A stretch of DNA of 17,650 nt from a virus. Taxonomy: Duplodnaviria; Heunggongvirae; Uroviricota; Caudoviricetes. Within the stretch, counting starts at the first letter, position 1. Each line of letters starts with the position of its first letter. This document shows positions 9,001-12,000 of the stretch, in pieces. The stretch is from the IMG/VR virus record IMGVR_UViG_2540341031_000012; one strand, written 5' to 3'. The position numbers were made by a program.

Positions 9001-12000
9001 AATCCGGCCCCCTGAAGGCCGCGCCGTCGCTGTCCTTTCTCGGGCTGGTTGTGATGGATGAACTCTGTGCCCGTCACATAAAAGCGCCGGTACTGCACTG
9101 AAGGAGAACAACACCATGAAAATGAACGTAACCGCCACCGTCAGCCATGCGCTCGGCCACTGGCCGCGTATTCTCCCGGCGCTGGGGATTCAGGTGCTGA
9201 AGAACCGTCATCAGCCCTGTCCGGTCTGTGGCGGGAGTGACCGCTTCCGTTTTGATGACAGGGAGGGGCGCGGCACCTGGTACTGCAATCAGTGTGGTGC
9301 CGGTGACGGCCTGAAACTGGTTGAAAAGGTGTTTGGTGTTTCCCCGTCCGATGCGGCCGCAAAGGTGGCTGCCGTGACCGGCAGCCTGCCCCCGGCTGAC
9401 CCGGCAGTGACGGCTGCCGCCGGTGCTGAAACAGACGCTGCCCGGAAGAACGCCGCCGCACTGGCACAAACCCTGATGGCGAAAACCCGTCCCGGAACCG
9501 GTAACGCCTACCTGACCCGCAAGGGCTTTCCCGGCCGGGAATGCCGGATGCTGACCGGCACACACAGAGCCGGTGGCGTGAGCTGGCGCGCCGGTGACCT
9601 TGTGGTGCCACTGTATGACGACAGCGGCGAACTGGTTAACCTTCAGTTAATCAGTGCTGACGGCCGTAAGCGCACCCTGAAAGGCGGACAGGTCAGGGGC
9701 ACCTGTCACATCCTTGAAGGACAGAATCAGGCCGGAAAACGTCTGTGGATAGCGGAGGGATACGCGACCGCACTTACCGTGCATCACCTGACCGGTGAAA
9801 CGGTGATGGTGGCGCTTTCTTCCGTGAACCTCCTTTCTCTGGCCAGCCTTGCCCGGCAGAAGCACCCCGCCTGTCAGATTGTCCTTGCCGCTGACCGTGA
9901 CCTCAGTGGTGACGGCCAGAAAAAAGCCGCCGCAGCCGCAGATGCGTGTGAAGGTGTTGTTGCCCTGCCGCCGGTCTTCGGTGACTGGAATGATGCCTTC
10001 ACGCAGTACGGCGGGGAAGCCACCCGTAAGGCCATTTATGATGCAATCCGGCCACCGGCTGAAAGCCCGTTCGACACCATGAGCGAAGCGGAGTTTTCCG
10101 CCATGAGTACCAGCGAAAAGGCCATGCGTATCTATGAGCATTACGGCGAGGCGCTCGCGGTCGATGCCAACGGCCAGCTTCTGTCCCGCTATGAAAATGG
10201 TGTCTGGAAGGTGCTGCCACCACAGGACTTTGCCCGGGATGTGGCCGGGCTGTTTCAGCGGCTGCGCGCGCCGTTCTCCTCCGGGAAGGTGGCCTCCGTG
10301 GTGGACACCCTGAAGCTGATTATTCCGCAGCAGGAAGCCCCCTCCCGCTGCCTGATTGGCTTTCGTAACGGCGTGCTCGACACGCAGAACGGCACGTTCC
10401 ACCCGCACAGTCCGTCACACTGGATGCGTACCCTGTGTGATGTGGATTTCACCCCGCCGGTGGACGGTGAAACGCTGGAAACCCACGCTCCCGCGTTCTG
10501 GCGCTGGCTTGACCGTGCCGCCGGTGGCCGTGCGGAAAAACGCGACGTGATTCTGGCCGCACTGTTTATGGTGCTGGCAAACCGCTACGACTGGCAGCTC
10601 TTTCTGGAGGTGACCGGTCCCGGCGGCAGCGGCAAAAGTATCATGGCCGAAATAGCCACCCTGCTGGCCGGGGAGGATAACGCCACGTCGGCCACCATTG
10701 AGACGCTGGAATCCCCGCGTGAACGTGCCGCGTTAACTGGCTTCTCACTGATACGCCTGCCGGACCAGGAAAAATGGAGCGGCGACGGAGCCGGACTCAA
10801 GGCCATCACCGGCGGCGATGCGGTGTCCGTTGACCCGAAATACCGGGATGCGTACTCCACGCATATCCCGGCGGTGATTCTGGCCGTGAACAATAACCCG
10901 ATGCGCTTCACCGACCGCAGCGGCGGCGTGTCACGCCGGCGGGTGATTATTCACTTCCCGGAACAGATAGCCCCGCAGGAGCGCGACCCGCAGCTTAAGG
11001 ACAAAATCACCCGCGAGCTGGCGGTCATCGTGCGTCACCTGATGCAGAAGTTCAGCGACCCGATGCTCGCCCGGTCACTGCTTCAGTCCCAGCAGAACTC
11101 AGACGAGGCGCTGAACATCAAACGGGATGCCGACCCGACGTTTGATTTTATCGGCTATCTGGAAACCCTGCCGCAGACCAGCGGCATGTATATGGGGAAC
11201 GCCAGTATCATCCCGCGTAATTACCGTAAATACCTCTATCACGCCTATCTGGCCTACATGGAGGCAAACGGCTACCGGAATGTACTCAGTCTGAAAATGT
11301 TCGGGCTGGGGCTGCCGGTGATGCTGAAGGAATACGGGCTGAATTACGAGAAGCGCCATACCAAACAGGGGATACAGACCAACCTGACGCTGAAAGAGGA
11401 AAGCTACGGCGACTGGCTGCCAAAATGTGACGACCCTGCAACAACCTGCCCCACCTGACCGGCATCTGCCGGTCTTTTTTTTATCCCGACCTCCCCCGAA
11501 GGTGAACAATCCACTGTTCACCCTTCACCGTATATTCACCCGTTATCACACTGAAATTAAAAGAGAAAAACGAAAGGTGAACAGTGTGAACAATCAAATC
11601 AAAAAAAACTTTTTTCTTCCTGAGTGATTTCAGTGCGGAGGATTAATCACCGGTATGAGTCACACCGGCAGAATGCCGGAGGTGAAGAATCGAATGTTCA
11701 CCCTTCACCCATTATTCACCACCTATCATACTGAAATAAAAGGATAAAAAAGAAAGGTGAACAGTGTAAACAGTTCTTTCGAAAAAAAATTTTTTCCTGT
11801 ACGATATAGCATCAATCCAAGTAAAAATGCGCTTTCATTTCACATTAACTTACAGCCATTGGTATACGATTAGGTATACGCACAAAAACTGAATTAAACA
11901 AAATCATTAAAAATCAAAGCAATACAATATTTATTCAAACTCCGCCAGCTCATGATTGGACGGTATAAGGACAACACCAATAAAAACAGGAAGTTAGCAG

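What the first reader, a model, noticed from the sequence alone, without database searches (positions are those of the whole stretch)
11501..11797. crr-like tandem ~120-bp repeats with an unusual spacer hairpin
Two near-identical units spaced 180 bp apart each carry several TGTTCACC / GGTGAACA / TTCACC motifs. The spacer between them contains a small inverted repeat (CCGGCA gaa TGCCGG, about 11664-11680). Such repeat pairs can be mistaken for CRISPR or miniature elements, but the iteron content argues for a replication enhancer.
Basis: partly seen in the sequence, partly recalled or inferred. Interest (0 to 1): 0.35.

Follow-up and report, generated by a model that had tools for sequence, protein, structure and literature searches.

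The report
P4 satellite phage replication region (crr)

Summary
Confirmed and already known. Window 11496-11795 holds two 120-bp direct repeats (81% alike, 180 bp start to start) separated by a 60-bp spacer. It is 96.9% identical to the annotated crr of phage P4 (X51522 4291-4590). Unit 1 is 120/120 identical, the spacer differs at one base and unit 2 at five. It lies where crr lies in P4: just after the alpha primase-helicase gene (99% identical to P4 alpha) and its terminator, 4.7 kb from an ori with six identical TGTTCACC iterons, and 138 bp before the attachment site. The host element is a ~10.9-kb P4-like prophage integrated in ssrA. Its integrase/att module differs from P4's, and the swap junction falls exactly at the end of crr unit 2. 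The 'unusual' spacer hairpin is not unusual. P4 has it with a 5-bp stem, and a T-to-C change here gives 6 bp. Other genera lack it, it shows no compensatory changes, and it has no T-run. The most likely mechanism is alpha binding the iterons at crr and ori and bridging them to activate the origin. By-products: ori looks like an inverted third copy of the crr unit; unit number varies among relatives (one unit is commonest); defence cargo is inserted beside or between units.

The parts
11496..11795 (+). crr (cis replication region) as delimited in the P4 record: unit 1, spacer, unit 2
   Evidence: [quoted passage not shown]
11496..11615 (+). crr unit 1 (120-bp direct repeat); 120/120 identical to P4
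   Evidence: nhmmer unit profile 103 bits
11676..11795 (+). crr unit 2 (120-bp direct repeat); 5 substitutions relative to P4
   Evidence: nhmmer 96 bits
11501..11508 (-). type I iteron, exact TGTTCACC (unit 1)
   Evidence: P4 annotation; 98% conserved in relatives
11515..11522 (+). type I iteron, exact TGTTCACC (unit 1), followed by the degenerate CTTCACC at 11524-11530
11533..11540 (+). type I iteron, 1 mismatch (TATTCACC), unit 1
11576..11583 (-). type I iteron, exact, unit 1
11585..11592 (-). type I iteron, 1 mismatch (TGTTCACA), unit 1
11601..11615 (.). A8-C-T6 tract closing unit 1, conserved across genera (0.83)
11616..11675 (.). 60-bp spacer; 1 difference from P4 (T->C at 11665); not conserved in other genera (0.28)
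11665..11679 (.). small hairpin CCGGCA-gaa-TGCCGG; its 3' arm overlaps the first 4 nt of unit 2
11681..11688 (-). type I iteron, 1 mismatch (TCTTCACC), unit 2
11695..11702 (+). type I iteron, exact, unit 2 (then CTTCACC at 11704-11710)
11713..11720 (+). type I iteron, 1 mismatch (TATTCACC), unit 2
11756..11763 (-). type I iteron, exact, unit 2
11765..11772 (-). degenerate iteron, 2 mismatches here (TGTTTACA); 1 mismatch in P4
11782..11795 (.). A8-T6 tract closing unit 2; homology to P4 ends here
9116..11458 (+). alpha gene (primase-helicase initiator), 769/776 identical to P4 alpha
11457..11482 (+). alpha terminator (7-bp stem GACCGGC/GCCGGTC plus T8)
6673..6776 (.). ori: six exact type I iterons, all identical to P4 ori
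6656..6756 (-). ori segment that aligns colinearly with the crr unit on the opposite strand
   Evidence: nhmmer 29.6 bits, E 2.7e-7; 0 of 500 block permutations reach it
8781..9101 (+). ORF106 homologue (DUF5375). From memory this is cnr, the copy-number regulator that acts on alpha
11861..11880 (+). two tandem GGTATACG integrase arm-type sites between crr and attR
   Evidence: same layout as the P4 attP arm repeats
11934..11949 (+). attR core (TTCAAACTCCGCCAGC), with a 7-bp deletion relative to strain CP145622
1038..1060 (+). attL core, which is the 3' end of ssrA (tmRNA)
1245..2465 (+). tyrosine integrase of the ssrA-specific module, preceded by arm-type sites at 1175-1222

Best explanation
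This is the crr of a P4-type satellite prophage. It is a cis-acting partner of the origin, made of two ~120-bp modules, each carrying five binding sites (type I iterons, consensus TGTTCACC) for the element's own initiator. That initiator is the alpha primase-helicase, encoded immediately upstream. After excision or infection, alpha binds the iterons at ori (6673-6776) and at crr (11496-11795), and alpha-alpha contacts loop out the 4.7 kb between them. This bridged complex is what allows ori to be opened and the alpha helicase/primase to start theta replication. The spacer and its small hairpin are passengers and not needed for this. Shown here: identity with the P4 crr; iteron content and positions; an intact alpha and ori; conservation of units but not spacer; matching iteron flavour at crr and ori across relatives. 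Taken from the P4 record and literature: the requirement in cis. Inferred from my recollection of the classical P4 work (Flensburg & Calendar 1987; Ziegelin et al. 1993), which I could not re-read here: alpha binding, looping and origin activation.
For: [quoted passage not shown] 2) The whole replicon is P4: window 4462-11795 is 97.8% identical to P4 11624-4291, alpha is 769/776 identical, and the six ori iterons are identical. 3) TGTTCACC occurs 13 times against 0.64 expected, clustered only at ori and crr within the element. 4) Across 18 relatives from other genera plus the window, iterons are 93-98% conserved in unit 1. Whole units score 0.82 and 0.73, the spacer 0.28 and the hairpin 0.11. 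5) Iteron flavour (TGTTCACC versus TGTTCACT) co-varies between the crr side and the ori side: Spearman 0.67, p 4e-4, n=23, not corrected for phylogeny. Pantoea elements use CTTCACC at both. 6) crr follows alpha, not the integrase. P4 (leuX-type int, from memory) and this element (ssrA-type int/att) share crr, and homology stops at the last base of unit 2. 7) Held papers describe crr as essential for P4 DNA replication.
Against: Nothing here measures binding, looping or replication. Unit 2 carries five substitutions relative to P4, one of which weakens an already degenerate iteron (TGTGAACA to TGTAAACA). The attR core has a 7-bp deletion, so this copy may not excise and its crr may never be used. 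The covariation statistic ignores shared ancestry. The looping step rests on my recollection of papers I could not open.
Confidence: 0.93

Rival explanations
1. The iteron cluster acts mainly as a negative copy-number or incompatibility locus. It would titrate alpha or handcuff ori, as the auxiliary iteron array incA does in plasmid P1, and would not activate replication.
For: The architecture, an extra iteron cluster distant from the origin, is the same as in negative-control loci of iteron plasmids (general knowledge). A cnr-like gene (ORF106/DUF5375) lies just upstream of alpha. Sequence alone cannot give the sign of the effect.
Against: The P4 record and held papers call crr 'required' or 'essential' for replication. 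At least one unit is retained in 67 of 72 alpha-encoding relatives, which fits a required site better than a dispensable brake. The two roles are not mutually exclusive.
Confidence: 0.05
2. The repeats belong to the integration module, as an attP arm or recombination enhancer for the integrase, since they lie only 138 bp from attR.
For: They are close to attR and, in P4, to attP.
Against: The arm-type sites are a different motif, GGTATACG. Its exact copies occur only at 1175-1222 and 11861-11880. crr is shared between elements whose int/att modules differ, and homology breaks exactly at the crr end. The crr motif matches ori, not att.
Confidence: 0.01
3. The spacer hairpin (11665-11679) is itself functional, for example as a terminator, a cruciform, or a single-strand initiation signal specific to the P4 lineage.
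For: CCGGCA-N-TGCCGG occurs exactly twice in the window, the other copy being the alpha terminator stem (0.00 expected). The core GGCAgaaTGCC is invariant in seven P4-type spacers of 82-100% identity. The spacer folds somewhat better than shuffles (z -2.3).
Against: No T-run follows it on either strand, and the terminator scan does not call it. It lies in a ~14-nt segment absent from all other genera's crr. Its outer two stem pairs change without compensation (P4: T; CP074769: A). Its 3' arm overlaps the conserved start of unit 2, which alone explains that arm's invariance. A natural hybrid single-unit crr lacks it, and single-unit crrs are the commonest form. ACCGGCA is generally over-represented in this element (15 versus 2.3).
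Confidence: 0.04
4. The repeats are a degenerate CRISPR array or a miniature transposable element.
For: Only the superficial repeat-spacer-repeat look.
Against: There are two copies only, 120 nt long and 81% alike. No cas-like gene appears among the ORFs scanned, and no Rfam family is hit. The position after alpha is fixed in 76 loci from many genera.
Confidence: 0.005

Closest known systems
crr (cis replication region) of satellite phage P4, X51522 4291-4590
   Same: Two 120-bp direct repeats 180 bp apart with five type I iterons each, at identical positions. Both lie downstream of the alpha terminator, 4.7 kb from ori and next to the att site. Identity is 96.9%, and unit 1 is identical.
   Different: One spacer substitution (T->C at 11665, stem 5 to 6 bp). 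Five substitutions in unit 2, one in a degenerate iteron. The flanking integration module is ssrA-specific instead of P4's.
crr-like regions of P4-like satellites in other Enterobacterales
   Same: The same ~120-bp unit with the same iteron layout and closing A/T tract, downstream of alpha.
   Different: Unit number and placement vary: 26 loci have one adjacent unit, 19 a tandem pair, 8 a split pair, 13 displaced units, 1 three units. Spacers are unrelated and lack the hairpin. Some use TGTTCACT or CTTCACC iterons.
Distant iteron clusters that act with an origin by initiator-mediated looping in iteron plasmids (R6K gamma iterons with the alpha/beta origins; P1 incA); from general knowledge, not tested here
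   Same: A second cluster of initiator-binding repeats kilobases from the site of initiation, acting in cis through protein bridging.
   Different: The initiator families are unrelated: P4 alpha is a primase-helicase (Toprim + D5_N + Pox_D5 domains), not a Rep/pi-type protein. P1 incA is inhibitory, whereas crr is required.

Membership tests
P4 crr (cis replication region) | Two ~120-bp direct repeats separated by ~60 bp | tested here: met
   11496-11616 and 11676-11796, spacing 180, 81% identity
P4 crr (cis replication region) | Each repeat carries type I iterons (TGTTCACC) identical to those of ori | tested here: met
   Five exact plus five degenerate copies at the positions annotated in P4; six exact in ori
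P4 crr (cis replication region) | Sequence homology to the P4 crr | tested here: met
   96.9% over 356 nt, E 4e-166; unit 1 is 120/120
P4 crr (cis replication region) | Position: just after the alpha terminator, ~4.5 kb from ori, adjacent to the attachment site | tested here: met
   alpha stop 11458, terminator 11457-11482, crr from 11496; ori 6673-6776; attR 11934
P4 crr (cis replication region) | Cognate alpha initiator encoded in the same element | tested here: met
   769/776 identical to P4 alpha, residues 421-775 unchanged; primase-helicase domains present
P4 crr (cis replication region) | Bound by alpha; required in cis for replication | not testable with these tools
   Only the record annotation and a held paper say so. 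The classical papers are not held.
CRISPR array | Three or more short (about 23-50 nt) near-identical repeats with unique spacers of similar length, usually with cas genes | tested here: not met
   Two repeats of 121 nt at 81% identity; no cas-like domain in the ORFs scanned
Intrinsic terminator (for the spacer hairpin) | GC-rich stem followed by a T-run | tested here: not met
   The scan finds only the alpha terminator at 11457-11474 and a site at 12046-12060; nothing at 11665-11679
Structured RNA family (Rfam) | Match to a curated covariance model | tested here: not met
   Best hits in 11400-12000 score 17.5 and 15.9 bits, far below the gathering scores

The most novel reading that the evidence does not exclude
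The P4 replicon may be built from one reusable ~110-bp alpha-assembly module. In this reading ori is a diverged, inverted copy of the crr unit, and replication needs ori paired with at least one oppositely oriented crr module. That module may lie anywhere from 40 bp to over 2 kb beyond alpha and may occur in one, two or three copies. The alpha-crr and unit-unit junctions would then be the physical site of the minor 'primase-to-att' defence hotspot of P4-like satellites. I could not check whether the ori/crr-unit homology was already noted in the 1987 sequence paper.
Probability: 0.35. Interest if true: 0.3.

Novelty: already known. Interest (0 to 1): 0.1.

Why it matters
For the scan it matters mainly as a correct call. 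A repeat pair that could be mistaken for a CRISPR remnant or a miniature element is the replication partner site of a P4-type satellite, and its presence, with an intact alpha and ori, marks an apparently replication-competent satellite prophage at ssrA. Such elements are in about a fifth of complete E. coli genomes (crr region in 1078 and crr unit in 1144 of 5426). The comparative by-products could help people who engineer P4 phasmids. Natural elements tolerate a single unit, unrelated spacers, and kilobase cargo between alpha and crr or between the units. That suggests where cargo can be placed without touching replication.

Tried and rejected
1) The spacer as a decayed copy of the alpha terminator region, from an ancestral 180-bp duplication. 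This was prompted by CCGGCA-N-TGCCGG occurring only at the terminator and in the spacer. Local alignment of the spacer against the sequence upstream of unit 1 in 23 tandem-crr loci is no better than shuffles (mean z -0.1; window z 1.2, sharing only ACCGGCA). Rejected.
2) The hairpin as a terminator: no T-run and not called. Rejected.
3) The hairpin as a selected structure: absent outside the P4 lineage, with uncompensated changes in its outer pairs. 6-bp hairpins occur 54 times in the window. Not supported.
4) An RNA gene in crr: no Rfam match.
5) Reading the classical papers (Tocchetti 1999, Ziegelin 1993) by PubMed id: not held. Mechanistic detail about alpha binding, looping and 'one repeat suffices' is therefore from memory.
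6) Loci that seemed to lack crr: most have it displaced by inserted genes. Only 5 of 72 have none within 3 kb.
7) The 435-aa hotspot ORF: no Pfam, PADLOC or PDB fold match.

Full report
OBSERVATION. The repeat finder reports one long direct-repeat family, 11496-11616 and 11676-11796: 121 nt, 81% identical, 180 bp start to start. The octamer TGTTCACC occurs 13 times in the 17.65-kb window against 0.64 expected, and none of 200 shuffles reaches 13. Five exact copies lie inside the finding and six lie 4.7 kb away at 6673-6776. The small inverted repeat CCGGCA-gaa-TGCCGG is at 11665-11679. There are three corrections. The units are 81% identical, not near-identical. They are separated by an unrelated 60-bp spacer, so they are not strictly tandem, and TRF does not call them. 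A perfect 6-bp hairpin is not remarkable in itself: the window has 54 with loops of 3-8 nt, about 0.18 per 60 bp.

IDENTITY. A BLASTN search of 11440-11860 against the phage collection finds only phage P4. The match is 96.9% identical over 356 nt to X51522 4291-4645. [quoted passage not shown] Base by base, unit 1 is 120/120 identical to P4. The spacer differs at one position (T to C at 11665). Unit 2 differs at five positions, one of which turns the degenerate iteron TGTGAACA into TGTAAACA.

The whole of window 4462-11795 is 97.8% identical to P4 11624-4291 in a single piece. That piece covers psu, delta, sid, ori, the immunity region (Rfam C4 RNA at 7578-7665), ORF106, alpha and crr. Alpha is 769/776 identical to P4 alpha, with no change between residues 421 and 775. 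The six ori iterons are identical.

CONTEXT.
- The left end of the window is smpB plus ssrA (tmRNA 698-1060), followed by a tyrosine integrase (1245-2465).
- P4 homology stops exactly at the last base of crr unit 2.
- Comparison with E. coli CP145622 locates attR at 11934-11949. That strain carries the same element at ssrA with different cargo and a different right flank. The attR sequence resembles the ssrA 3' end, and in this window it carries a 7-bp deletion.
- Exact GGTATACG motifs occur only at 1175, 1187 and 1215(-) next to int, and at 11861 and 11873 next to crr. This reproduces the layout of the P4 attP arm repeats.

The element is therefore a ~10.9-kb P4-like prophage (about 1038-11949) whose integration module has been exchanged for an ssrA-specific one. 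The crr is the last piece of the conserved replication module. The ypjA autotransporter DNA at 12109-15493 lies outside the element and is present in nearly all E. coli. The crr region is found in 1078 of 5426 complete E. coli genomes, always chromosomal.

WHAT IS CONSERVED. I fetched 76 loci encoding alpha homologues, one genome per species. For the 20-sequence alignment of elements with a tandem crr, I measured agreement with the window base.

| Feature | Agreement with window |
|---|---|
| Unit 1 | 0.82 |
| Unit 2 | 0.73 |
| Unit 1 iterons | 0.93-0.98 |
| A-run/T-run closing each unit | 0.81-0.83 |
| Spacer | 0.28 |
| Hairpin | 0.11 |

The hairpin lies in a ~14-nt segment present only in P4 and this window. 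Within E. coli the P4-type spacer is common, in 1004 genomes. In seven such spacers of 82-100% identity, the outer two stem pairs change without compensation, while the 3' arm is fixed because it overlaps the start of unit 2. No T-run follows the hairpin, and the terminator scan does not call it. So the hairpin is neither unusual relative to P4 nor supported as a selected structure.

EVIDENCE FOR THE MECHANISM. The GTGAACA core recurs downstream of alpha and in the upstream ori flank, but hardly at all within the 2.3-kb alpha gene in between. Where relatives use TGTTCACT instead of TGTTCACC, they tend to do so at both sites (Spearman 0.67, p 4e-4, n=23, not corrected for phylogeny). Pantoea elements use CTTCACC at both. 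crr travels with alpha, not with the integrase. Held literature calls crr essential for P4 DNA replication.

From memory of the classical work, which I could not open: alpha's C-terminal domain binds type I iterons in ori and crr, loops between them were seen by electron microscopy, and one repeat suffices. I therefore commit to the standard model. Alpha bound at crr bridges to alpha at ori and enables origin opening and helicase/primase loading. Identity, anatomy and conservation are shown here. Binding, looping and the requirement in cis are taken from annotation, literature and inference.

BY-PRODUCTS.
- **ori as an inverted third copy.** An nhmmer profile of the 120-bp unit (40 units) also hits ori on the opposite strand over nearly its full length (window 6656-6756, 29.6 bits, E 2.7e-7). 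The same hit appears in 30 relatives. Five hundred permutations of ori that keep its six iterons reach at most 25.7 bits, with a mean of 9.4. ori thus shares the unit's layout and looks like an inverted third copy.
- **Variable architecture.** Among 72 loci with enough flank, 26 have one unit next to alpha and 19 have a tandem pair (including this window). A further 10 have one displaced unit, 8 a pair split by 0.3-2.8 kb, 3 a displaced pair, 1 three units and 5 none.
- **A natural one-unit variant.** L004 (alpha 99% identical, same ssrA-type arm) has a single hybrid unit, as expected from recombination between the two units. It is a metagenome contig, so assembly collapse is not excluded.
- **Cargo insertions.** The insertions carry defence-type genes: FRG/PDC-S15, Mrr-like nuclease, SIR2, an OLD/AriA-like ATPase and a Pua-like phosphoesterase. 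A 2026 paper already reports a minor P4 defence hotspot between the primase and an att site but never mentions crr. Only the fine placement relative to the crr units may be new.

REJECTED IDEAS. CCGGCA-N-TGCCGG occurs only at the alpha terminator and in the spacer. That suggested an ancestral 180-bp duplication including the terminator. However, spacer-versus-upstream alignments in 23 loci are no better than shuffles, and ACCGGCA is over-represented throughout the element (15 versus 2.3). No Rfam family overlaps crr.

VERDICT. The feature is the already described P4 crr in an ssrA-integrated P4-like prophage, and the hairpin is an incidental, lineage-specific feature. Novelty: already known. 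Interest: low (0.1). The modular reading of ori and crr and the cargo placement are modest leads.

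Noticed in passing
window 6656-6756 (- strand) versus 11496-11615 and 11676-11795: ori aligns colinearly with the crr unit on the opposite strand (29.6 bits). 0 of 500 iteron-preserving block permutations reach that score, and the same hit appears in 30 relatives. ori looks like an inverted, diverged third copy of the crr module.
   Followed up: yes
loci L004-L077 (downstream of alpha): crr unit number and position vary among P4-like elements: 26 with one adjacent unit, 19 with a tandem pair, 8 with a split pair, 13 displaced, 1 with three units, 5 with none within 3 kb. The P4-style pair is not the commonest form in this one-genome-per-species sample.
   Followed up: partly
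L047:3730-4704, L035:5742-6761, L054:5419-6516, L028:3520-5307, L052:6428-7888: Genes inserted between alpha and crr, or between two crr units, are defence-like: FRG/PDC-S15, Mrr_cat, SIR2, OLD/AriA-like ATPase and Pua-like+metallophosphatase. The 'primase-att' hotspot is already published, but its relation to crr is not mentioned there.
   Followed up: partly
L004:4116-4234: An element with 99%-identical alpha and the same ssrA-type att arm has one hybrid crr unit (unit 1 5' end joined to unit 2 at TGTTCACCCTTCACC). This is a clean 180-bp deletion that removes the spacer and hairpin. It is a MAG contig, so assembly collapse is not excluded.
   Followed up: partly
window 11795/11796, with 1038-2465 and 11797-11949: The int/att module differs from P4's. 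Homology to P4 ends at the last base of crr unit 2, and the element is integrated in ssrA. GGTATACG arm-type sites occur only at 1175-1222 and 11861-11880.
   Followed up: yes
window 11949/11950: The attR core lacks 7 bp (CCACCAA) present in the same element in strain CP145622. This might impair excision.
   Followed up: partly
window 2785-4092 (- strand): A 435-aa ORF sits in the main P4 defence hotspot (int-psu). It has no Pfam or PADLOC hit and about 44 homologue clusters, all 'hypothetical'. The AlphaFold model is confident (pLDDT 86) but has no PDB fold match. Invariant D166...E179-x-K181 suggests a PD-(D/E)xK nuclease domain behind a three-helix N-terminal bundle. Strain CP145622 carries different cargo, an ABC-three-component system, in the same slot.
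   Followed up: partly
window 5261-12163: The heptamer ACCGGCA is over-represented (15 versus 2.3 expected, 0 of 200 shuffles), almost entirely inside the P4-derived part. No explanation found.
   Followed up: no
window 11601-11615 and 11782-11795: Each crr unit ends in an A8-(C)-T6 tract that is conserved across genera (0.81-0.83, against 0.64-0.67 for the inter-iteron stretches). The ori copy ends in a similar A-run. It may be a bend or easily melted element.
   Followed up: partly
loci L021-L069 and the Pantoea loci L042, L048, L068: Iteron flavour differs between lineages (TGTTCACT, CTTCACC) and matches between the ori and crr sides of the same element.
   Followed up: partly
window 12109-12435 and 12464-15493 (- strand): The ypjA/EhaD-type autotransporter is split into a 1009-aa AIDA-repeat ORF and a separate 108-aa beta-barrel ORF, which suggests a disrupted gene.
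   Followed up: no
window 16098-16116: A second ssrA-3'-end-like sequence (ATTCAGACACCGCCAGCTCA) lies 4.2 kb beyond attR. It is probably an old att scar from an earlier island at ssrA.
   Followed up: no
window 7380-7665: Rfam finds the P4 immunity RNA system: C4 antisense RNA at 7578-7665, its a1/b1 targets at 7380-7432, and an isrK-like match at 7393-7470.
   Followed up: no
window 13407-13414 and 15487-15494: Two further exact TGTTCACC copies lie outside the P4-like element, in the ypjA region. They are probably chance matches.
   Followed up: no
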